NCBI RefSeq assembly: GCF_009914755.1
Contig: NC_060933.1
Length of the DNA: 64,000 nucleotides
Reading direction: 5' to 3' (one strand)
From: the human T2T-CHM13v2.0 reference genome, Homo sapiens
Shown: positions 6,915 to 28,884 of the stretch, in pieces
Layout: the number at the start of each line of letters is the position of its first letter
How positions within the stretch are numbered: the stretch's first letter is position 1
Notes under the pieces: model-generated
The model's database searches: none
Told to the model about the DNA's origin: nothing
Seen by the model: only the letters and a program-made list of their open reading frames with translations
Translations under genes and position numbers: made by a program

Positions 6915-8080
6915 GTTCTGTGTCTTGCTTATTTCACCTATCATAAAGACTTCTAGTTCCATCCATGTTGCTGCAAATTACAGGATTTTATTCCCTTTTA
7001 TGGATGAATAATATTCCATTGTGTGTGCGTGTATGTGTGTGTGTAGTGTGTGTGTGTGTATATATATATATACACACATTATATATATATATACACACAC
7101 ACACACTACACACACACACACACACACCACACACATTTTCTTTATCTAGTCATCTACTGATGGACACTTAGGTTGATTCCATGCCTTCGCTATTGGAAAT
7201 AGTGCTGCAAGAAACATGGGAGCGTATGTGTATCGTACATACTATTTTTATCTTCAATATACTGAGTTCCTTTCTTTTGGATATGTATCCAGTAGGGAGT
7301 AGTTCTATTTTTAGTTTTTTGAAGCATCTCTATACTGTTTTCTATAATGGCTGTACTATTTTACATTCTGACCAACAGTAAACAAGCATTCCCCTTTCTC
7401 CACATCCTCACCAGTATTTGTTATTTTTTTTGGTCTTTTTTTATGATAGCCATTCCAACTGGAGTGAGATAATATCCCATTTGGTTTCGATTTGCATTTC
7501 CCTGATGATTAATAATTTTGAACATTTTTTATATACCTGTTGGCTATTTGTCTCCTTTTGAGAAATGTCCATTCTGATCTTTTGCCCATTTTTAATTGAA
7601 TTATTTGGGGTATTTTGCTATTGAGTTGTTTGAGATTTTTATATATTTTGGTTATTAATCTCTTGTCAGATGATCGTTTGAAAATATTTTCTCCCATGCT
7701 CTCAGTCATATGTGGGAGCTAAAAATGTACCTCTCATGGAGGTAGAAAGTAGAATAGTGATTGTCAGAGGCTGGGAAGGGAAGAAGGAAGGGGAAGGATA
7801 AAGAGTAAAATGGTTAATGTGTAAAAAAATCCCTTTAGATAGCAGAAATAAGTTCAAGTATTTGATTGTACAGTATGGAAATTACAGTTAACAAAAATGT
7901 ATTGTATATTTCAAAATAACTGGAAGAGAATGTTCCCAACATAAAGAAAAGACAAATGTTGGAGGTGATGGATATCCCAGTTACCCCAATCTGATCACTA
8001 TACATTGTGTATATGTATCAAATTATCACATGTCCCTTCAAAATATAAACAACTATGATACATCAGTTAAAAAATACAAA
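6915..8080. mobile_element. L1MA 3' end with 5' inversion (6915-7697 minus; about 7695-8080 plus)
   Basis: Antisense L1 3'UTR text switches at ctcccatg to sense text (catgctctcagtcatatgtgggagctaaaa) that runs to the L1 3' end and A-rich tail. Confidence 0.8.
7020..7135. repeat. Compound (TG)n(TA)n(CA)n microsatellite
   Basis: Directly visible inside the L1MA. Confidence 0.95.
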
Positions 8081-8955: not shown

Positions 8956-9538
8956 TAAGGACAATGAGGGCCCATTAAAGAGGTGTAAAAATGAGAGAGA
9001 CAAGCTAGACTGATGATTTAGAAAGATGACAGTGTATAGAGGATGCATTGCAGAGGGGCAAGATTGGGACTAGGAATACCAGAAAGACAGAGAAGGGGAG
9101 AGCAATCAGTTTACAAAAGCATAATTTCTAACACTCTTACCAATGACTACCAAAAATTCTTAGGTTAATTATGAGTAAATTGGTTGAAATCAGAAGTCTT
9201 TCTAAACCAGGATAAGGGACACCATGTGGAGGAGGAGGGATCAGAGTGGTTTACTGGTGCTTCCTTCACAGACATGCAAAATTCTATGTTAATGCCCTAT
9301 TTCTATGAAGGGTATTCTAGCAAAATGGAAGAAGAGAATATGTTTTGATTCAAATATAGGGTTATTTAAAAATATTATTTCTATCACCAAAGAATTGGGA
9401 ATTATAGAATCTAATGGAAAAAAGAAAAATCAAAAAAGAAAAATCTCAGAATCAAATGTAAGTTCATTAAAAAAACTTCCAAAAGACAACCACTTTATAG
9501 CAATGTGTATTTAAACCTGTCATATAGCATGAATTTTT

Positions 9539-9830
9539 TTTTTAATTGAGTTGGAGTCTTACTCTGTTGCCCAGGCTGGAGTGCAGTGGCGTGATCTTGG
9601 CTCACTGCAACCTCCACTGCCTGCGTTCAAGCAATTCTCTTGCCTCAGCCTCCTGAGTACCTGGGACTACAGCTCTGTGCCACTACACGCGGCTAATTTT
9701 TTTGTATTTTAGTAGAGATGGGGTTTCACCATGTTGGCCAAGCTGGTCTTGAACTCCTGACCTCAGGTGATCTGCCTGCCTTGGCCTCCCAAAGTGCTAG
9801 GATTACAGGTGTGAGTCACTGCACCCAGCC
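9539..9830 (-). mobile_element. AluS (Sx/Sz-like)
   Basis: Full dimer with gacctcaggtgatc; TSD-like TGAATTTTT at 9530 and 9831. Confidence 0.93.
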
Positions 9831-10409: not shown

Positions 10410-10692
10410 TTTTATTGATTGATTGGGACAGGGTCTGGCTCTGTCACTCAGGCTGGAGGGCACGATCCTGGCTCACTGCAGCTTCCGCCTCCCAGGCCCA
10501 AGAGATCCTCCCACCTCCCACCTCCCACCTCCCATGGTGTGCGCCACTATGCCCGGCTAATACTTGTATTTTTTGTAAAGACGGGGTTTCACCATTTTGC
10601 CCAGGCTGGTCTCAAACTCCTGATCTCAAGTAATCCACCCACCTTGGGTTCCCAGTGTGTTGGGATTACAGTGGTAGCCACCGTGCCCAGCC
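10410..10692 (-). mobile_element. AluJ, diverged, with an internal (CTCCCA)n expansion
   Basis: Alu dimer with J-type features (ctcaagtaatcc, acagggtct) and heavy CpG decay. Confidence 0.88.
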
Positions 10693-11368: not shown

Positions 11369-11693
<325 letters not shown>

Positions 11694-15399: not shown

Positions 15400-16840
15400 T
15401 CAAATTTTTTACTTCAAAAAACATTTTTCACTAAAAGGAAGTAATTTACATAAGACAAATGTCTGATTCCAGGTTCTGGAGCAGAAAATGTACAAAATAA
15501 ACCCAGAGCATGTTGTCATAATGATAACAAGGAAGTGATCAAAGACTACTGTGTCAAAAGGACTTGGCAACCAATCAGAGGAAGCTTCCACTGAAAAAAA
15601 TGGGGCAATTTGAGCATCAATAAAGACAATAACTGCAATTAAATGAAACAAATATGTTTCAATCAGTGAATTCATAGTGAGATACTACTAAAAAGAAAGA
15701 AGGAAGGTGGGAAGGATGGTAGGAAGAAAAGGAGGAAGGAGAGAGAGAAAGAAAAAAGAAATGAAAAGAGAAAGAAAGTAAGAAAAAAAAGAAAGAAAAG
15801 AAAGAAAGGGAGGGAGGGAGAAACGAAGGAAGGAAGGAAGAGAAAGAAAGGAAGAAAGAAAGAAAATATAACCTGCTACATACAACTGCTGTATACAACT
15901 GAAAATACAACTGCTAGTGAATCTACTTATTATTTGACAACTGGTAAATAAAGGGGAAAAAATTCAAGCATATTTTCTGTCTTTCCTAAATGAACTGTTC
16001 CACTGGGTAAACAAATAGATAAGAGCAAACTTCTTTTTATAGAAGTATTCCAGCTAACAGATGAAGAAGTTATAAAAAATTAGAGTATCTTCATTTCAAA
16101 AACCCAGATTAATTAATGGATCTAGGTATTAATCATCTCCAGCTGCTAAAATCATGCAATAATATCCAACAACTTTCTTGAGGAAGTACTCAACACTACC
16201 TGTGAAGTAGTCTTGCCAGAAAAATCAAACCTCACCCTGATTAAGCCTCTAGATCTAGTGACCAGTTCACAGGAAACTCAGAGGACAGAAGAACATGCTA
16301 AATGATGCCACGAACATGCAATCAGCAAAATATAGAATATAAGAAACTACAGAACAGGCAAACAAATTTACTTAATAGATTCATTACAAGAGGGCAGAAA
16401 AGAGACAGAGGGGTTATCAAGTTATTGAAAGAGACTTAGGAAGAAATATAACACCATAGAAATAAGTGGATGTTAATTCAAATTAACTTAAAATTATATT
16501 TTTGAAGGGAGTGGAAATTGGAACACTGTATATTTAATGGAACTACAATTTTTAAAAAAATTTACTGTGATCATAATGGTATTGTGATCATGTGTGTATG
16601 TGCATATCTAACAAAGTCATTATGTTTTGAAGATACATATGGAACTATGAGAGATGAAATAGCAACTGAGATTTGCTTTAAATAATATGGAAGAGAAAAC
16701 TGAAGGGTGGTAGAAAGATGAAAAAAGATTGGTTGTAATTTGAAAGAATTATTAATTCAGGGTAGTGATACATGGGAGTTTATTATTGTATTTGTCTATT
16801 TATGTTTATGTTTGAAGTTTCCCATAATAAAAGAGTTAAA
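15400..16840 (+). mobile_element. Old LINE-1 (L1MC/L1ME-like) 3' region
   Basis: Recalled L1MC-like 3'UTR phrases ending tttgaagttttcccataataaaa; boundaries approximate. Confidence 0.55.
15690..15867. repeat. Purine-rich (GAAA/GGAA)n low-complexity tract
   Basis: Directly visible; nearly all purines on the plus strand. Confidence 0.95.
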
Positions 16841-19125: not shown

Positions 19126-19606
19126 TATATTATACTATAGTATAAGTATATTATACTACAACTATAGTATAAGTATATTATACTACAACTATAGTATATT
19201 ATACTACAACTATAGTATATTATACTATACTTATAGTGTAAGTATATTATACTATAACTATAGTGCAAGTATATTATACTATACTTATAATGTAAGTATA
19301 TTATACTATAACTATAGTGTAAGTATATTATACTATAACTATAGTGTAAGTATATTATACTATAACTATAGTGTAAGTATATTATACTATAACTATACTG
19401 TAAGTATATTATACCGTAAGTATAGTGTAAGTATATTATACTATAACTATAGTGTAAGTATATTATAACATAAGTATAGTGTAAGTATATTATACCGTAA
19501 GTATAGTGTAAGTATATTATACTATATTTATAGTATGGTATATTATACTATAATATATTTATAGTTTAGTATATTGTACTATATTATACTATGTATTATA
19601 CTATAG
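19126..19606. repeat. AT-rich 27-bp minisatellite (unit about AGTATATTATACTATAACTATAGTGTA) built from palindromes
   Basis: Directly visible tandem units with degenerate ends; gives the spurious YYNYSVSIL-repeat ORF. Confidence 0.97.
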
Positions 19607-21439
19607 GCTGCAAAATAAATTAAAAAGGAAAGATGTCCACATAGGCGTAGCAACACACATTAATTACATTTTTCTTTCTAAAAGTCACAATAGGGATAGA
19701 AGGAATATTTCGGGTGGAGTAAGAGACAGGAGATTGCTGATGGAATAATAAGAATCCTTCTCCAAATGACAAATTTCAGGTCATCCCCAGGTGATTTAGT
19801 TTTATAGCAGGATTCACTCCTGAGGCACATCCTCAACTAGATAGATTGAGACAAGACCATAGGCCATCATGAAGTCAAAGGCATAAAACTGTAATTAGCT
19901 ACAAGTAGCCCAAGGAGACTTGAGAATGCTGTCAAAGTCCAAAATTTGCAAAGCCAGCTGTAGCTTCACTTTGCTTTACACAATGTAATTTGAGTTACCT
20001 ACAAAGCCTAAAGGAAAGGAAAGCAAACATCTCAGAGATGAGTTCGCCCCGCTTGGAGGAAAGAAAACCCACTCTGGCCCCTTGCTTTCTTTAAACCAGA
20101 GTTTCCTCTCAATAAGAAGTAGGTGGGGAGATTCTGGTGGTTGTTAGTGGGTGGAGAAGGGAGAAGTTAAAGGGAAATTGGGATAGCATCCCCTGTGTTT
20201 AAAATAGAGAACACCTCCAAGAAGAGAGGACCTGGGTAGACTTTATTCACTTAATAGACTTTAAGTGCCTGAGGACACAGTACAAACTTGTATCACATTA
20301 TCAGACAGGCCCCCTCACGGCATCAGTGTCGGCAGAGACTCATGAATATGTAAATACTATATGTATCTTGGAAACATGCTTGACAAGAGAATAGCTAAAA
20401 TGAACTGATTCTAGTTATAAGCCCATCAGCCTGCCATTCTTTATGTTTGAACAGGCAGGCTATTGCTAGGTGACAGATCATTAAGGCTATCTACTCAGTC
20501 AGTGGAAATGAAGAAATAATTTGTTCCTAATAACCTTCAGATGACCTCCCAGGCAAAAGGGAGTCTTTAAAGTGCTGTCTCTGCTGATACATCTCAGGCG
20601 GGAGGGTGGGGTTCTTCTGGCCCTGCAGTCAGAGCAGGGTGGCTGGTGAAACAGATTAATAAACACCTACTGACAGGGACATAGCAGGAAAAGATCTCAT
20701 CACCTGCCATTATCAGGCTGATGAATAATTCAGAGCTCTCCATCAGAGCCGAGAATTTCAGGCTACGCTGTGCTCTACACTTGCAGGGAGGGGGAAGCAT
20801 GAAGGTGCTCATTGCTGGGATTAAATGGGGGCCCAGGAAATTCACTTCTGCTCCAGACTGTGTGGGCATCACAACGGGTGGGGGAAGCAGGCATGAAAGA
20901 AGATTTGCCTCTTTGGAAGGTGGCCAGGCAGGTTCAGGGGCCAAGAGCCAGCAGGAACCTCCTCAAAGATTCCTGACTGTTATGAAATTTTGGTGGCCAG
21001 TGCAGACCCCCTGGCACTTATGTGTCCACCACTGTAGTCAGAAAAAGAGGCCGCAGCTCTTGTTTCCTTGCCTGCTGGTGGGTTCCAGAAGAGCAAGTAG
21101 GTCAGTCTCCTGGATATGCTCCTCACTCGTTGAGCACTTCATCATACCCCCATTTCTGCTCTCTCCCTGTGTATGAGAAAATATTTGCACTGTGATCCTC
21201 GTGTAACAGATTTAGGGTCAGCTGGCTTCTATGGGGAATCTCAAGACAGTGTCTAACTACCAGCTGTGTGATTCTGACCACATTCTAGTCTTTCTGGGAC
21301 TCAGTTGCCTGGTCTATAAAATGGGCTGAATCATATCTGACTCAGACAATTATTGTAAGGATTAAAAAGAAGTACACATAGAAAGGCCTAGCAGAGTACC
21401 TGGAACCAAGCACATCCCACTTCATGCCGGAGACAAATG

Positions 21440-21910
21440 TCTCCCCCTAATAATTGTTTTTTTACTTGGAACAAGGCAGGAACCAGACTAGACATGCAAA
21501 TTTGGTAATTCAAGGACTTAAATAAAAGAGGAGTTTCTATAGGTGATAGCATGACTTAGCAAACCAGCAAGGGATAGGAACATGCCCTAGGACTAATAAC
21601 CGCAGGGATCACTTAGCCCTGTTAGGCCTCAAGGGGCAGAAGGACAAGGAAAATTTGCTGCTTGACAGAAGCCTTTCATAAAAGGTCACAGCCAACCATG
21701 GTGACCTGGCAGGGAGGGAGCACAGGACAAATACCCCACTGTACTTTCCTCCTGCCCCAATCTTCTGCCTGGGCTTCCTTTTGGCTGAACTCAACTGGTC
21801 CCCAGGCAAGAGGCCTGTTGATGGGTTGATAAGCCTCCTGGGCACAGAGCAAGGTAACAAAGGGTGGGAATTGAATCTGGAGGGATAAGAGGAAGAGCTG
21901 CAATTTACTA
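21440..21910. mobile_element. Probable old ERVL/MaLR-class LTR remnant
   Basis: LTR-like phrasing (gggcacagagcaagg...gaatctggaggg); family and orientation not resolved. Confidence 0.35.
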
Positions 21911-23299
21911 TCTGAGCGATGCGACTATTGGCACTTCTCCATCTGTTGTAACTTTTAATGTGTGTTGGATGAATTAAAAACATAGCAAGAGAAAGGACAG
22001 GGTCCATGCACTTTAGTAGCCTTTAAACTAGTTGAGGGTAGAGGGGGAAGGAGAATAGGAGAGAGAAAGAGACAGAGGAAGGGAAGAAAGAATGGAAGAA
22101 TTTGAATAGTTGTAATAAAAAAGTACTGATTTTAGAGACAAAAAATTTTAGATCATCACTTAAATCATTGCTTATCTTTTATTTACTAAGACACTTCTCC
22201 ACCTTTCTGGTTCCATCGTGTATAAAATGGAAACTTTGGAGGACCTGATATCACAGGTCTTTCCTAGCTTGGAATTCATGACTTCAAGTGTGGTCATAGG
22301 GTAGTTCCACCAATACTTTTCCTTCCTCAGCACCTGAGGCAAGCATGGCCTGAAAGACAAAGATTGTCATTCCTCAGAACTCAGAGTTACACTTCTCTTC
22401 CTAAATTTGAAATTGATTGAGAGCTCAGCATGCCTTTGGTGAACTGTGTACGTCATGCAAAGACTAACAATCTCATGTATTCAAGCAAGGTTGAGCTTTG
22501 CTGGGCTGGAGCTTATTTGTATTGGTCAAGTGTGGGAGAAAAAAATGTGATACCCCATTCCTAAGAGATAAGCTGAGAAAAGCCTCTGGCCAAAAGCTAG
22601 AAAAACTGTGGATCTAGTTGAGAGTCAATCATCTCTTATGAAGCACCATTTTAAAGAGTATTGTTAAGTGGCTTAGAGATAAAGTGCCTTTTCAGAAACA
22701 TTTGGTTTCAAGAGAGAAAGTGAAAATTGGGAGGCATTAGGTAATTGGAGGGCTGAAAGGAGGCAAAAAATGAAAGCAGAGCAGGTAGAGAAATGAGCAG
22801 AACTGGAAAGGAGGAGGCAGAGCTGTGTTAGAGATAGACCACGCACAGCAGGAGAGGACCCTAAATAGGATGCAACAGAAAGTCTGAGTCATCCACATTT
22901 TCATCCATTTGGATCATTCTCATTCCTAATTTTGAGTACAATCAGTCCTACTTTTGTATTGCACCCTAACCTATGAGGAATATAGCATGCTAGAGAAAGA
23001 CTAGCAACAGCTTTCAGCTAGCCTTAAAGAATGGGCTATTTAGTTATTTGATTCAGGAACAGCATGCAATTCATTCACTCATTACTTTATATTTTCAAGA
23101 TATATTTATTGAGTCCCTATTAGGATCCTTAAAATCTTCTGGAAATATATTCGTGACCTACATAGATACCATGGTCAAGGGAAGTCTCTGAGTATTAAAT
23201 GATAAAGAAGAGCCAGCCATAAGAGGATCAGCAGAAGGAGCATCCCAGGCAAAAGGAGAAACACATGCAAAGCCCTGGAAGCCTGGCCAAGCTTTGCCT

Positions 23300-23894
23300 G
23301 TCATGGTCACTAATTATACTGATGAGCGTGTATTTGAAAAAAGTTACTGCCACAGGGTAGAGCCCAGAGGCAAGATTTACTAAAAACAAACAAACAAACA
23401 AACAACAACAACAACAAAAAACAGTTACCTTCAGATAATAAGCAACATGGAGAAGGTTGCATAGCCCAAACAGAAATAGCACCTCACCTGCACACATAGC
23501 CCTTCTTTTCTTTTCTACATGGATTATTTCTGTATGTGGATTGGAACTTGGAGAGAACACCAGAATGTTTTCTGGGCCTTTGACATTTTTTCTCAAGAGT
23601 TTGTTTCCAATACTTTCAAAAACATTGTCTCTCTTCTGAATACAGAAAAGAGGAAGGCATGCTTCTTTAGGGACGTTTCTGGGTACGGATGAGTGTGTGT
23701 ATTTCTGGAGAAGTTCCACTGATCATTTCCATTTCTGTTTGGGCTATCCAACCTTCTCCATGTTGCTTATTATCTAAAGGTACCTTACCTGTTTGTTTGT
23801 TTGTTTGTTTATAGTAAATCTTGCCTCTGGGCTCTATCACGTAGCAGTAACTTTTTACAAATATAGTGTCATCAGTATAATCAGGAGCCATGAC
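23300..23894. repeat. Long inverted repeat: arms 23300-23479 and 23729-23894, spacer about 250 bp
   Basis: The reverse complement of the right arm aligns to the left arm end to end, including agataataagcaacatggagaaggttg, tagagcccagaggcaagatttacta and a shared (CAAA)n tract. Confidence 0.97.
23488..23635 (-). other. Candidate 148-nt exon in the loop of the inverted repeat
   Basis: Minus-strand acceptor ccttcctcttttctgtattcag|AAG and donor GCAG|gtgagg; no transcript evidence available. Confidence 0.4.
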
Positions 23895-24179
23895 TCCTTT
23901 AAACAAGACAGTTATTTGAGGTAAATAATTATACTTGAATGTGATGAAGAAGTTTAGCCAAAGAAAGCAAGGAGGGAAAAGAATAAAGGTGAAGATGAAT
24001 TTATAAAGAACGTCACAAGGGAAAGCAGTGTTTTGTTTTGTTTTTCCTTCTTTCCTTCCCTAGTGACAAAGCTATGTCATTTGAGAGAAAGATGAAGAGC
24101 CTATTACACCAATGGCGTTCAGATGTCTGTTATGAAGGAAAGTGATCCCAGGCAGAGTCAGGGAAAGTAGATCCCAAAT

Positions 24180-24310
24180 GGGGTGACCATTTGTTCTGGT
24201 TTGCTGGGAAAGTCCTAGTTTCCACCTGTTGTCCTGGTGTACTTGCTAACAATGTTCTCCCTTTGCTTTCAAAAGTGTGCTTTTTGGATGATAAATAATA
24301 TGGTCTCTCT
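24180..24310. mobile_element. MER94-like hAT-Blackjack MITE
   Basis: gggtgaccat ... atggtctctc terminal inverted repeats; internal cctgttgtcctggtgta and tttcaaaagtgt. Confidence 0.65.
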
Positions 24311-24569
24311 CACTTAAACCTGCCTCTTCCACTAGGCAGGTACCTGTCTCTGGGTAAATCTGTAAGTCTCTGAAGTCTCTGGACCTCAGTTTCTCAAGAG
24401 TTTGTATGACATTGTGACTAACATGTTCTTTAGCCTAATATTCTATGGTTCCACTAAGGCCAAGAGAAGAAAAGTTAGAGTTTGTGGAAGGGGATGTGGA
24501 ATGTATTTGATTTGAATTAAAGAATATCAGTGATTTCTGAGGGATATATTTGCCTCCTTATTTAGTACA

Positions 24570-25344
24570 ACTGCCTCTGGCTTACCCTGTGATCTTGACC
24601 CCATGTAGGCCTAGACTCATGTGTGTGTTTTTGTCTAAGTTTTTAACAAAATAGTTTAAGAAGTTAAAAAAAACAGTAATAACAAATTTTAAAAATAGAA
24701 AGAAGCTTATACAGTAAGGACATAAAGAAAAACTATATTTTGGTAAAGCTATGCATTTTATTTATGTTTTAAGCTAAGTGTTATTACAAGAGTCAAAAAG
24801 TTAAAATTGAAAAGATTATAAATTTAAAAATTACAGTAAGCTAAGGTAAATTTATTATTGAAGAAGGAAAATATTTTTAATACATTCAGTGTAATCTAAA
24901 TGTACAGTGTATATGAAGTCTACAGTAGTGTACAGTAATGTCCTAAGCCTTCACATTCACTCACCACTCACTCATTGACTCACCCAGAGCAATTTCTAGC
25001 TTGCAAGCTCCATTCATGGCAAGTGCTCTAACAGGTATACCATTTTTTATCTATTACACCATACTTTTACTGTACCTTTTCTATGTTTAGATATGTTTGG
25101 ATACACAAATGCCATTGTGTTACAAGTGTCTACAGTGTTCAGCGCAGTCACATGCTATACAGGTTTATGATCTAGGAGCACCTAGTTAGATTATAGACCT
25201 AGGCCCATAATCTGGGCCATACCATCGAGCCTAGGTGTGTAGTAGGCTATACCACCTAGGCTTATGTAAATACACTCTATGACAGAATCATCTACGGATG
25301 CATTTCCCAGAACATAATGAACATATCATTAAACAACACGACTG
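24570..25344 (-). mobile_element. Tigger3/MER7-like Tc1-mariner DNA transposon fossil
   Basis: cattcactcaccactcactca, tactgtaccttttctatgtttagata, ctaggtgtgtagtaggctatacca; ends acgactg followed by TA. Confidence 0.85.
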
Positions 25345-26489
25345 TACTTCTAAGCGAAATTTCATAGAATTAAGTGTACATGTTGATACATTTCTTCAGT
25401 GCTTCATTAGGCGCTTTGTTAGCCATAGACTTACTAGCTTATCCCTGCCGAAAATGATTTCTTTCTTTCCAAATAAGCAGGTAGAATGACATGGGTGTAA
25501 AATACTCCTAATCCAGTCGTGTCCCTCCTCTTTCTCAGAAAGTTCTTGCTGTATGTACTGTACAACCAGAAGATGACAGTTCAGTAAAGGAAAAGGTGTG
25601 TTTACCTCAGGAGAGAGTGTCTTTATGACACTGATCTGCTCTGATGAATCCACTAATGTGAAATTTCTGACCCAATAGGCAGTGATTGCACAGCTCTGAG
25701 ACTCTTCTCATTATTCATGAAATATGTGCTGCATGGCGTCAGTGCTCTCCCTGCAGACTTGCTGCCAAGCAATTACTCATTTCCATCACTTAGCTTTTTT
25801 ATTATTATTATTTTTCAGTGGGTGTCTATATATTCAGCACACTTCAAGAAGCAAAGCACAGTCCCAGAATGAAAATGATGCTTGTCTTGTTTGATTTTAA
25901 ATAGAAAAGCACTTTCAAGTCCTTAAAAATTGATGTTGTTTTAAACTTACAACAAGCAGTAAGGGAAACCAGTAGCTGCAGAAATAAATGGAAAGCAATC
26001 CGGAGTATTTCCACTGTTATACATATTGGCTACCAAGAGATGCTGGGAGGACTACCTTATAGTTCTTAATATATTTCCCTGACTTCCCCTAGGAACCCTG
26101 AAGAGGAACAATGAACCAGGAATGGCGACAGAGCTCTTATTGTGCTCCTTTGCCAAAGGCAGAGTATCCCTGTGCAGTGCAATGGTCCATGCTTGAAAAA
26201 GGGACAGGCTCCAGGAACTGTGTCCGTTTCATATCAAAATGTTTGCATGTTAAGTTCTTGCAGAGACAAAATCTAATGTGAAAGAGTGGCCGTCTTTTGC
26301 TGCTATGTGATATAATCTGTGCAGAGCACTTGCCTCCCTGTCGTCATCACCATGGAGGAATATTCCAACCCTAGAAGTTGTCCCAGAAGATTTTTTTTTT
26401 TGGAACCGACAAAACTTTATTAAACATGAGATCCTCAGTTGTAGACTCCAGTCCAGTCCTCCTGGGTGTGGTAAAATCTTCTCATATTC

Positions 26490-26980
26490 AATGGTTAATT
26501 ACAGTGATGGCCCCAGCTCTTCACAGTCCCTGTATCCAGCCTTTCCCACGTGAATGTGTAGTTACTCACTGAAAAGGCAGAGTCTTTCTCTCCATCTCTC
26601 CAATGTGAACTGGTCTTATGACTTGCTTGGCCAATAGAATGTGCAAAGGAGATGGTGGGCAATTTTTAAGCCTACACCTCCAAAGGTCTTGCATGTTGCC
26701 ACTTGACCTATCTTGGACCCTTGCTGTTGCCATGGGAGCATGCCCAGGCCAGCTTGCTAGAAGACAAGAAACATGGATCAGCTCATCTGCCCTAGTTGCC
26801 CCAACCAAGGCCAGAGAGAACAGCTGACCACCAGCTGACCCCCTAAATACACGAGTTAGTCCAGTCTAGGTTAGCAGCGCCACCTAGCCTGCTAGTCACC
26901 CCAGCTGACCCCAGATATGTAAAGCATTTCTATTATAAATAGCAATTATAAGGTTTTATAACTAGAAGCTGTCACATAAA
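26490..26980 (+). mobile_element. MLT1-type MaLR LTR
   Basis: tgacttgcttggccaatagaatgtg, ccatgggagcatgcccagg, ccagctgacc motifs. Confidence 0.7.
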
Positions 26981-28884
26981 TAACAGACTCATATCCCACC
27001 AACAAATTATTACTTTCCTTTTTTCACCTCTCCCACCACGCCTCACCGTGGTAGATTTTGTTTGCTTTGGTTTTTCATTTTTCTTCAGTTTCTTTTATTT
27101 AGTCCACTTACTATTAAGTACATATCACTGTACTAGACAACATGGTTAATACAGAGACTGGTGAATCAAAGAACTTTCTCTCAAAGAGTTCTCATTCTAA
27201 CACAGTAATTCTCAATATTTTTTATCTTGACACTTAATGGATGGCATTAATATGTGCAACACATTCTCAAGAGCAAACGCAGAGTTATGAACAATTTCTG
27301 ATGCATTTGCTTTTTCTATATCCATGTCTCCTGTGCCTAAGAAATTGCACTTGAGTGCTAGTGAATGAAAGCAGCATTAAGGAGTTTGAAACATATCATA
27401 GCTGTCACCCTGAATCATTTGTATGTTGTTATTTTACCTACTATTAGTTATAAATTACTTACAACCCACTTCACTGCTGATTACTACATCCTGGGTTTTG
27501 ATGTCTCAGATGAGAACAACTGGCCTAGTGAAAGGAGAATGCTGACATCCGAGGCATTACCTGCAATCCAAAGCAGAGTGATAGAAGGGTTTAGCAGAAA
27601 TACTCAGAGGGGACACAAAAAGGAATAATAACACATGCTGACTTGGGCATATAAGGTGGCTTCCCAGAAGACTTGACATCCATCCGACCTAAACCCAGGG
27701 TTTCAACAGAGACTAAATCACTTCATTAGTAAAAGAGCACTCTTTATCCCATCTCCTCCAAACCCAGATGTTCCCCAGTTCTTTGACTGAACTCAGTGGA
27801 GGCTGACATTTCAATTAGAGCAAAGAAATTCCATGTGATTGCTACACCTTCCTGAGATAGGTGACAGGAAGGTAACTCTTCAGAATTCAGCTTCCATGAC
27901 TCTGTCACTGTGTCTCCCCAAAAAGGATATTCAAAGAGTCAGCCTCCCTCTCTTGCATTTCTGGACAAAAGACTAAGTCAGGCCAGATTCACCAGTTCTC
28001 TATCATCTGTCAAATGGCAGACCTGGGACAAACATGGTTTTCTAGTCCCTGGCCTAATGTTCTTTCAACTTTATTGAATGTGTGATGATCTTTAGAGGTC
28101 CCTTTTAACCCTGGCTTCTGAATCATGTTTTCTTTTGAGGTCTTGCCTGCCAGTCTAAAGGAAGGATTTATAGACACCATCCCTCCCATCTCTGCTTCTG
28201 AGTCAAAGCTGTTCATTTCAGAGGACTTACAGATTCCAGAAGACTCTATTTTAAGAAAAGCTCTTTCCCTGTTTCCTCCTCTCCTGTCTATTCTAGCAAA
28301 GTGTGATCACTGGGTTTCATTCTACTGCACAGTTTTCCCAAGTGGCTTTTCCATTCTGTGATAGCAGAGGAGTAGGAAACAGCTCCCCACTGGAAGTAGG
28401 TGCCACAGTGAGAGCAATAAAGTTCTACAGAACAGTATTGCATAAAGAAGATGGCTTGGAAAGGTGTGTTCTTTCATGTAGGTTGAAAAAAGGGAGCTTC
28501 ACTGCCAGATAGGGAAGTTGTGTGGAGCCTTTGCTCCTGTCTACGAAAATCACAGTGAAGACTTTTAAGGTTTAGAAGTAAAGCTAGGCCATCCTCTGCA
28601 GTTAACTATTCTTTTGAGAAAGAGCTGCTGGCTTGCTACTCAGCCCTAATAGGGACTAAATGCTTGATTACAGGCTGTAATCTGCAGATTTACAGAATAC
28701 TTTGTTACCATTATGGCATTGCACACAGCAGTGCTTTTGACCAGGGAACTCATGAGCAGAGTGCAGTCTGACACTCCAGTATATAGTTGGAGAGGCATCC
28801 TATCATCAAGTGGGAATGATGTATGTGAAACTCTTCATCAGCACATGACTCAGATTATTACAGTTCCTACTCTTGCTACATTCC

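What the first reader, a model, noticed from the sequence alone, without database searches (positions are those of the whole stretch)
23300..23894. Long inverted repeat of unknown origin that loops out a candidate exon
Seen: two arms of about 170-180 bp in inverted orientation, separated by about 250 bp. Inner blocks are almost identical (about 50 nt with 2 mismatches next to the loop; about 47 nt with 1 mismatch around the CAAA tract), and mismatches cluster in the outer third. I do not recognise the arms as Alu, L1, MIR or a MER TIR, and there is no flanking TSD. The loop holds a minus-strand acceptor (ccttcctcttttctgtattcag|, exon start 23635) and donor (CAG|GTGAGG, exon end 23488), the donor under 10 nt from the stem. 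Established: complementary intronic arms closely flanking an exon promote back-splicing (circRNA) or exon skipping and are ADAR substrates; these arms are usually inverted Alus. Inference: a locus-specific, non-Alu stem may control circularisation or skipping of a 148-nt lncRNA exon.
Basis: partly seen in the sequence, partly recalled or inferred. Interest (0 to 1): 0.8.

Follow-up and report, generated by a model that had tools for sequence, protein, structure and literature searches.

The report
Single-copy inverted duplication, probably neutral
A real 600-base hairpin-forming inverted repeat sits in unique human DNA on chromosome 9; it is not a transposon, looks like an old local inverted duplication, and nothing available shows that it controls an exon.

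Summary
Arms 23300-23477 and 23731-23894 are reverse complements: 146 Watson-Crick pairs in 163 aligned columns, 17 mismatches, 3 indels, and a 253-nt spacer. As RNA, either strand folds at about -280 to -289 kcal/mol, z about -20 to -22.

Searches of the T2T assembly with four arm pieces found only self and the partner arm. The spacer and the left 1 kb found only themselves. Controls of equal length from repeats gave 57 and 304 candidates. There is no target-site duplication, Rfam family or CpG island.

My reading is a locus-specific inverted duplication of unique DNA. Arm divergence of 9.5% suggests an age of tens of millions of years. It most likely arose by a replication template switch or fold-back and is now neutral.

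The minus-strand splice motifs exist. However, six pairs of equal generic quality lie in this exon-free window, no annotated minus-strand gene covers the site, and use cannot be tested here. Complementary non-Alu stems around exons and non-repetitive hairpins are already known classes. Interest is low.

The parts
23300..23477 (.). Left arm of the inverted repeat (178 nt)
   Evidence: reverse complement of 23731-23894; its two non-simple parts find only self and the other arm in the whole assembly.
23731..23894 (.). Right arm of the inverted repeat (164 nt)
   Evidence: searched from this side too, only self and partner found.
23478..23730 (.). Spacer or loop (253 nt), unique sequence with no internal symmetry
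   Evidence: only self in the assembly; no further inverted matches around or inside it.
23382..23422 (+). A-rich microsatellite (CAAA)n followed by (CAA)n inside the left arm; 14 nt longer than its partner
   Evidence: It is the only part of the arm that matches elsewhere in the genome (query positions about 69-136).
23790..23811 (+). Partner microsatellite (TGTT)n inside the right arm
   Evidence: (I3, I4, I8). Its presence in both arms shows that the tract predates the duplication.
23488..23635 (-). Candidate 148-nt exon (motifs only) inside the loop; acceptor tract at 23636-23659, donor GTGAGG at 23487-23482
   Evidence: motifs confirmed; 6 pairs of equal generic quality in the window. There is no annotation and no expression evidence.

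Best explanation
This is a locus-specific inverted duplication of unique, non-coding DNA. One segment of about 165-180 bp already carried a (CAAA)n microsatellite. It was copied once in reverse complement about 250 bp away, most likely by a replication template switch or fold-back priming onto the nascent or complementary strand (inferred). A break-repair event is a less likely route (also inferred). The two arms have since drifted apart by about 10%, so the event is old, roughly tens of millions of years and within primate history (inferred from recalled neutral rates). The 253-nt spacer and imperfect arms make it a poor cruciform or hairpin former in DNA, which explains why it has persisted. 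It lies in an intron of the predicted plus-strand lncRNA LOC107987087. Any transcript through it on either strand would fold into a roughly 146-bp imperfect double-stranded stem, as a by-product and without a selected role.
For: Shown:
- Arms, spacer and indels are as described.
- The four non-simple arm pieces have exactly two places in the 3.1-Gb assembly, self and partner. The spacer and the left 1 kb are unique. The right flank is unique up to a repeat about 700 nt away.
- The search method finds repeats of 76-90% identity with queries of the same 83-nt length, giving 304 and 57 first-look candidates. With 300 nt at 77-80% identity it gives 2277 candidates.
- No TSD, no Rfam family at gathering score, and no CpG island within +/-3 kb.
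- The microsatellite is present in both arms, so it was copied with the arm.
- Divergence of the non-simple parts is 13/137 = 9.5%, K2P 0.10, 95% CI 5.1-15.7%. This also rules out a sequencing or assembly palindrome artefact, which would be perfect.
- In 200 kb of random genome plus the window, 62 of 63 close inverted pairs had multi-copy arms, and only this one is single-copy.

From papers:
- Template switching copies nearby sequence in reverse complement and creates hairpins in one step (PMC5453318, passages).
- Inverted repeats are reported unstable only with spacers under 20 bp and identity above 85% (PMC5414712, passages and section 5).
Against: - No outgroup genome could be consulted, so neither the age, nor which arm is the copy, nor neutrality is shown.
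- Described short-range template switches are much shorter: median 12 nt, maximum 128 nt in the great-ape gold-standard set (PMC7954356, passage). A 165-180-nt copy lies outside that documented range.
- I saw no clear microhomology at the junctions when reading by eye. After about 10% divergence this says little.
- The strongest splice-motif pair of the window by a tailored motif lies exactly in the loop. The expected number there is 0.0015 post hoc, a coincidence this explanation has to accept.
- Dfam/RepeatMasker could not be run.
Confidence: 0.75

Rival explanations
1. An unannotated minus-strand lncRNA has a 148-nt exon (23635..23488) in the loop. The stem brings its flanks together to promote exon skipping or back-splicing into a circRNA.
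For: - The motifs are real and good: donor 8 of 9 to MAG|GTRAGT, and 18 of 20 pyrimidines before the AG.
- With the tailored motif it is the only such pair in the window. About 0.0015 would be expected inside a 253-nt stretch.
- The stem is far longer than the 30-40 nt reported to suffice for back-splicing (PMC7371899, passage citing Liang and Wilusz).
- Minus-strand lncRNA genes lie on both sides of the window (hub table), so read-through or unannotated isoforms are conceivable.
Against: - No minus-strand gene and no exon of any gene is annotated here (hub table).
- The thresholds were fitted to the candidate. With a generic donor score, 6 equal pairs lie in this exon-free window, and 23 to 348 with looser cut-offs. 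About 1.16 tailored pairs per window are expected by chance against 1 seen.
- The donor sits only about 4 nt of intron from a long stem beyond the U1 footprint, which could hinder rather than help its use (inference).
- There is no CpG island or other promoter hint nearby.
- No paper mentions the locus.
Confidence: 0.04
2. A functional hairpin RNA. Transcribed within the plus-strand lncRNA intron, or on the minus strand, the stem is a selected substrate of ADAR or Dicer: an editing sponge, an endo-siRNA or miRNA-like source, or an innate-immune ligand.
For: - The stem has 146 Watson-Crick pairs in 163 columns (89.6%). The longest perfect run is 27 bp, or 34 bp with G:U on the minus strand. The loop is 253 nt.
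- Fold energy is -280 to -289 kcal/mol for the 615 nt folded, spacer included.
- These values are at or beyond the medians reported for edited non-repetitive human dsRNAs: 144 bp, 30 contiguous bp, 87.5% paired, loop 509 nt, -184.8 kcal/mol (preprint PMC11838218, Table 1 as shown).
- The hub table places it inside the span of a predicted plus-strand lncRNA.
Against: - Being editable is not being functional. The same preprint counts 492,832 unedited against 4,597 edited non-repetitive predictions.
- No Rfam miRNA or other family matches at gathering score.
- The arms have accumulated mismatches and indels at a level consistent with neutral drift. Only 2 (plus strand) or 5 (minus strand) of the 17 mismatches are G:U.
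- The host lncRNA is only a predicted model.
Confidence: 0.08
3. A solitary or very low-copy foldback-type transposon (MITE), or a remnant of a family too diverged for these searches.
For: The architecture of long terminal inverted arms around a short unique core resembles foldback or palindromic non-autonomous DNA elements. Dfam could not be consulted. The genome tool warns that only the best candidates are scored and that very common words are skipped.
Against: - If the family were as young as the arm-to-arm divergence implies (about 10%), sister copies would be 80-90% identical and easy to find. None was found with four arm pieces and the spacer, while controls at 76-90% identity were found.
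- No TSD.
- The termini (GTCATGG...) do not match the hAT, Tc1/mariner or piggyBac ends I recall. That is recall, not a test.
- If the family were old enough to escape the search, its two arms should not still be about 90% alike.
Confidence: 0.08
4. An assembly or sequencing artefact (chimeric fold-back read).
For: Palindromic artefacts are known from amplification and long-read library preparation (recalled).
Against: Artefactual fold-backs are perfect copies. These arms differ by 17 substitutions and 3 indels, including a microsatellite length change. They sit in a finished telomere-to-telomere assembly with unique flanks.
Confidence: 0.01

Closest known systems
Inverted repeats created by replication template switching (four-point model; Loytynoja and Goldman 2017, PMC5453318; Walker et al. 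2021, PMC7954356)
   Same: In both, a nearby segment is copied once in reverse complement. The result is a locus-specific hairpin-capable repeat with no transposon hallmarks and a spacer between the arms (passages).
   Different: The documented events are short: median 12 nt, maximum 128 nt. Here the copy is 164-178 nt and lies about 250 nt from its source. The event itself was not observed because no outgroup was available.
Complementary intronic sequences that promote back-splicing: inverted Alus, inverted MIRs at ciRS-7, and non-repetitive complementary sequences (PMC7371899 and works it cites)
   Same: In both, a long complementary pair closely brackets an exon-like unit. The stem is much longer than the 30-40 nt said to suffice (passages).
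   Different: Those cases have a transcribed gene, used splice sites and a detected circle. Here none of the three is shown and no gene is annotated on that strand.
Non-repetitive intramolecular dsRNAs of the human genome (dsRNAscan preprint, PMC11838218)
   Same: Length, percentage paired, contiguous run, loop length and energy all fall in or beyond the range reported for the edited non-repetitive class.
   Different: Editing is unknown here. Because the arms contain a simple repeat, that study's rule would file this hairpin as 'repetitive'. I could not check its supplementary tables for this locus.
Long inverted repeats (LIRs) of primate introns (Wang and Leung 2009, seen only as cited in PMC5414712)
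   Same: Both are intronic, non-transposon inverted repeats with spacers under 2 kb, said to include primate-specific cases (passage).
   Different: By the criteria quoted there (spacer under 20 bp, identity above 85%, arm/spacer ratio above 16) this one is not recombinogenic. Its ratio is about 0.7.
Palindromic non-autonomous DNA transposons (MITEs, e.g. MADE1 or MER-type elements; recalled)
   Same: Both have terminal inverted arms around a short core and are of hairpin-forming size.
   Different: This one is single-copy in the genome and has no TSD. Both are defining features of the family and both were tested and not met.

Membership tests
Non-autonomous DNA transposon (MITE) with terminal inverted repeats | Many dispersed copies in the genome | tested here: not met
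   The arm pieces 23300-23382, 23418-23500, 23812-23894 and 23700-23789 find self and partner only. The spacer 23478-23730 finds self only. Controls of 83 nt from repeats gave 304 and 57 candidates.
Non-autonomous DNA transposon (MITE) with terminal inverted repeats | Target-site duplication directly flanking the termini | tested here: not met
   Boundaries were shifted over 22 x 22 positions with k from 2 to 12. The best matches are 4 nt, none at the alignment ends.
Non-autonomous DNA transposon (MITE) with terminal inverted repeats | Match to a curated consensus (Dfam or Repbase) | not testable with these tools
   No repeat library is on hand.
Inverted Alu pair | Arms are Alu elements | tested here: not met
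   The arms have 2 hits in a 264-kb sample, whereas 60 of the other 62 pairs have 31-177 hits. The whole-genome hits of the arm are only to the (CAAA)n tract.
Template-switch or fold-back inverted duplication | Reverse-complement copy of adjacent unique sequence, present at one locus only | tested here: met
Template-switch or fold-back inverted duplication | Ancestral state with one arm only in an outgroup, with microhomology at the switch points | not testable with these tools
   No other primate genome is held. The junctions were read by eye only.
Short-range template switch events as catalogued in great apes | Copied fragment of tens of nucleotides (median 12, maximum 128) | tested here: not met
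   The arms are 164-178 nt against the range in PMC7954356. The element may work like these events but lies outside the described class.
circRNA- or skipping-promoting flanking complementary sequences | Complementarity of at least 30-40 nt on both sides of the exon | tested here: met
   There are 146 Watson-Crick pairs. The arms end about 10 nt from the donor and 95 nt from the acceptor.
circRNA- or skipping-promoting flanking complementary sequences | Transcription of that strand, used splice sites, and a detected back-splice or skipped isoform | not testable with these tools
   No expression data are available. The hub table lists no minus-strand gene here and no exon in the window.
Known RNA families (Rfam 15, including miRNA precursors) | Score at or above the family's gathering threshold | tested here: not met
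   Only two sub-threshold chance hits: 22 bits against 40, and 19.8 against 95.
ADAR-edited non-repetitive dsRNA | Long, mostly paired intramolecular stem | tested here: met
   set against Table 1 of PMC11838218.
ADAR-edited non-repetitive dsRNA | A-to-G editing sites on both arms | not testable with these tools
   No RNA-seq or editing catalogue is available.

The most novel reading that the evidence does not exclude
A primate-born, single-copy stem of about 146 bp, made in one step by an unusually long template switch, has been co-opted. On the minus strand it would loop out and circularise or skip an unannotated 148-nt lncRNA exon. Alternatively, as part of the plus-strand lncRNA intron, it would serve as a dedicated ADAR or Dicer substrate. 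Either would be a clean natural example of de novo birth of an RNA-structure-based regulatory element from non-repetitive DNA.
Probability: 0.06. Interest if true: 0.45.

Novelty: new member of a known kind. Interest (0 to 1): 0.15.

Why it matters
As it stands, little. It is one more non-repetitive inverted duplicate in a gene-poor region, of a class already counted in the hundreds of thousands as predicted hairpins.

Its modest value is as a clean specimen. The arms are single-copy, the flanks are unique, and it carries a datable divergence. Comparison with other primates could therefore show exactly how a template switch or fold-back of more than 150 nt happens in the germ line. That is longer than the events catalogued so far.

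If RNA data showed the loop exon or editing to be real, it would be a convenient non-Alu model for structure-driven splicing. The principle itself is already established.

Tried and rejected
- Transposon TIRs: rejected on copy number and TSD (controls 12, 39, 40).
- Known RNA family or miRNA precursor: nothing at gathering score.
- A larger, more degenerate palindrome around the arms, or symmetry inside the spacer: none. Word-7 BLAST of 21000-26000 against itself on the minus strand returned only the arm pair. The 701-nt element against the whole window returned only the arms and microsatellite matches.
- The weak internal match I5 (23456-23478 against 23525-23547, 74%) and the 16-nt direct match D2 (23305-23320 against 23920-23935, 88%): I treat both as chance.
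- An identity gradient as a sign of gene conversion or selection near the loop: not significant (p = 0.24 and 0.057).
- Nearby promoter: no CpG island; CpG observed/expected is 0.00-0.39 over 20001-27000.
- Base rate: I planned 600-800 kb of random genome but obtained only 200 kb. The base rate is therefore only '0 single-copy pairs in 200 kb'.
- Proper splice-site models (MaxEntScan, SpliceAI) are not on hand. I used consensus counts instead, and their thresholds are partly fitted to the candidate.
- Literature on the locus: a search for the three neighbouring LOC names gave 2 papers. In the search listing both are SNP association studies, and I did not read them.

Full report
**What is there.** Reading 23100-24100 and running the repeat finder confirm two collinear inverted blocks. 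These are 23300-23404 / 23790-23894 (105 nt, 87%) and 23423-23477 / 23731-23785 (55 nt, 95%). A gapped alignment joins them into one pair of arms, 23300-23477 (178 nt) and 23731-23894 (164 nt), around a 253-nt spacer.

The arms differ by 17 substitutions (7 transitions, 10 transversions) and three indels of 1, 1 and 14 nt. The 14-nt indel is extra (CAA)n/A-run in the left arm's microsatellite. Both arms carry the (CAAA)n tract at the same internal position, so the tract was part of the unit that was duplicated.

In pairing terms there are 146 Watson-Crick pairs in 163 aligned columns. The longest perfect run is 27 bp, or 34 bp on the minus strand if G:U is allowed. The 615-nt region folds as RNA at -288.8 (minus strand) and -280.1 (plus strand) kcal/mol. 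Shuffles give about -143 +/- 7, so z is -22 and -20, and 0 of 20 shuffles fold as well.

The block counts are correct. The claimed clustering of mismatches in the outer third is visible but not secure. Eight of the ten outer mismatches fall in two tight clusters (23326-23330 and 23351-23357), which may be only a few multi-base events. I therefore draw nothing from the gradient.

**Is it a transposon?** The window's own assembly (3.1 Gb, 24 contigs) could be searched.
- The whole left arm hits elsewhere only through the (CAAA)n tract, at query positions about 69-136.
- The non-simple pieces of both arms find exactly two places each, self and partner. These pieces are 23300-23382, 23418-23500, 23812-23894 and 23700-23789.
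- The spacer finds only itself. So does the left 1 kb.
- The right 1 kb is unique until a high-copy repeat that starts about 700 nt away. It gives 2277 first-look candidates at 77-80% identity.
- As controls for short queries, two 83-nt pieces from repeat stretches of the window gave 304 and 57 candidates at 76-90% identity.

A family young enough for its two arms to be about 90% alike would have sister copies well inside that range, and none exists.

No target-site duplication appears even when both boundaries are allowed to slide. No Rfam family reaches its threshold. The arms are also not Alu. In a sample of 200 kb of random genome plus the window, 63 inverted pairs (at least 60 nt, spacer at most 2 kb) were found. 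Of the other 62, 60 have arms with 31-177 hits in the sample and two have 5-7. Only this pair has just its own two hits. Dfam or RepeatMasker could not be run, which leaves a small residue of doubt.

**Most likely origin and mode of action.** The simplest account is a single local inverted duplication of unique DNA. Template switching during replication is a documented one-step way to copy nearby sequence in reverse complement and create hairpins. The switch may be intra-strand (fold-back on the nascent strand) or inter-strand (PMC5453318, passages seen).

The catalogued short-range events are much smaller, with median 12 nt and maximum 128 nt (PMC7954356, passage). This would therefore be an unusually long example, or the product of a related break-repair fold-back. 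I claim that it works like these events, not that it is a member of that catalogue.

The non-simple parts of the arms differ at 13 of 137 sites (9.5%, K2P 0.10, CI 5.1-15.7%). Both arms evolve on the same lineage, so this is about 5% per arm. By the neutral primate divergences I recall, not computed here, the event falls roughly between the Old World monkey split and early primates. That is tens of millions of years, and older if arm-to-arm conversion occurred.

The divergence also excludes a fold-back sequencing artefact. Persistence is unsurprising. By the criteria quoted in the Lirex paper (spacer under 20 bp, identity above 85%, arm/spacer ratio above 16 for strong instability; PMC5414712), an arm/spacer ratio of about 0.7 is benign.

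**The exon idea.** The motifs are exactly as described on the minus strand. There is an acceptor with 18 of 20 pyrimidines before the AG, with the exon start at 23635. There is a donor CAG|GTGAGG (8 of 9 to consensus), with the exon end at 23488. This gives 148 nt.
- With a motif tailored to this candidate it is the only pair in the window, against 1.16 expected from the site densities. Only 0.0015 would be expected within a given 253-nt stretch.
- That coincidence is worth stating.
- With a generic donor score (at least 8 of 9) there are 6 such pairs in the window. With looser cut-offs there are 23, 153 and 348. By the hub's table the window contains no exon of any gene.
- No minus-strand gene is annotated over the site. 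The only gene spanning it is a predicted plus-strand lncRNA, for which the repeat is intronic.
- There is no CpG island within 3 kb.
- No paper in the library mentions the locus. A search for the three neighbouring LOC names found 2 papers. Judged by title and abstract in the search listing, both are SNP association studies, and I did not read them.

Splice-site use, back-splicing and editing cannot be tested with the tools here. The reading is unsupported rather than refuted, and I give it about 4%.

**What any transcript would experience.** Whichever strand is transcribed, the stem would form. Its metrics meet or exceed the medians reported for edited non-repetitive human dsRNAs: 144 bp, 30 contiguous bp, 87.5% paired, loop 509 nt, -184.8 kcal/mol. 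These come from preprint PMC11838218, Table 1 as shown. Editing as a by-product is therefore plausible if the region is expressed. The same source counts 492,832 unedited against 4,597 edited non-repetitive predictions, so structure alone is weak evidence for function. I could not see that preprint's supplementary tables, which may already list this hairpin.

**Comparison with what is known, and novelty.** Non-Alu stems that drive back-splicing are established. Examples are the inverted MIRs at ciRS-7 and non-repetitive complementary sequences in human and fly (PMC7371899, passages). Locus-specific intronic long inverted repeats in primates have been surveyed (Wang and Leung 2009, seen only as cited).

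The finding is thus a new member of a known kind: a single-copy inverted duplicate. Its one mildly unusual property is its size relative to catalogued template switches. The interest score is 0.15. The boldest reading not excluded is co-option as an exon-looping or ADAR/Dicer element, at about 6%, which would deserve about 0.45.

Noticed in passing
window 23724-23735: The hexamer CATTTC occurs twice in tandem exactly at the spacer/right-arm junction (the arm starts at 23731). This could be a slip or a trace of microhomology at a switch point. It was read by eye and not tested.
   Followed up: no
window 23326-23330 and 23351-23357: Eight of the 17 arm mismatches sit in two tight clusters (4 in 5 nt, 4 in 7 nt), and transversions (10) outnumber transitions (7). 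This suggests a few multi-nucleotide events after the duplication rather than independent point changes.
   Followed up: partly
window 23305-23320 and 23920-23935: A 16-nt direct match (14 of 16) links the outer end of the left arm to the unique DNA 26 nt beyond the right arm (D2). It is probably chance.
   Followed up: no
window about 24590-24894: A high-copy interspersed repeat of about 300 nt, with 2277 first-look candidates in the genome at 77-80% identity. I used it as a positive control and did not name the family.
   Followed up: partly
window 9534-9687 and 11480-11633 (also 10459-10517 / 11521-11579, 11430-11533): Inverted pairs whose arms are high-copy and, as I recall the consensus, Alu-like. 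They have 92 and 31 hits in the 264-kb sample. These are the ordinary kind of inverted repeat in this window.
   Followed up: partly
window 7023-7127: A compound microsatellite (GT)n(AT)n(AC)n that is self-complementary, with arms of 44-48 nt and a 7-11-nt spacer at 82-96%. As a near-palindrome with a short spacer it is a more plausible DNA hairpin or cruciform former than the finding itself.
   Followed up: no
window 19126-19224: An AT-rich repeat that scores as a 47-nt inverted pair with a 5-nt spacer at 81%.
   Followed up: no
window 15740-15822: A piece of a masked stretch that matches 57 first-look candidates, often as adjacent overlapping hits at one place, for example C11:70.02 Mb, C8:74.51 Mb and C21:22.55 Mb. 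This suggests a minisatellite-like or internally repetitive element.
   Followed up: no
L023 2488-2871 and 3972-4328 (G000:C10:29941245-29951244): In the random sample, this is one inverted pair of a low- to mid-copy sequence, with 5-7 hits in 264 kb. It appears as two collinear blocks of 83% and 71% identity with a spacer of about 1.1 kb. It was not identified.
   Followed up: no
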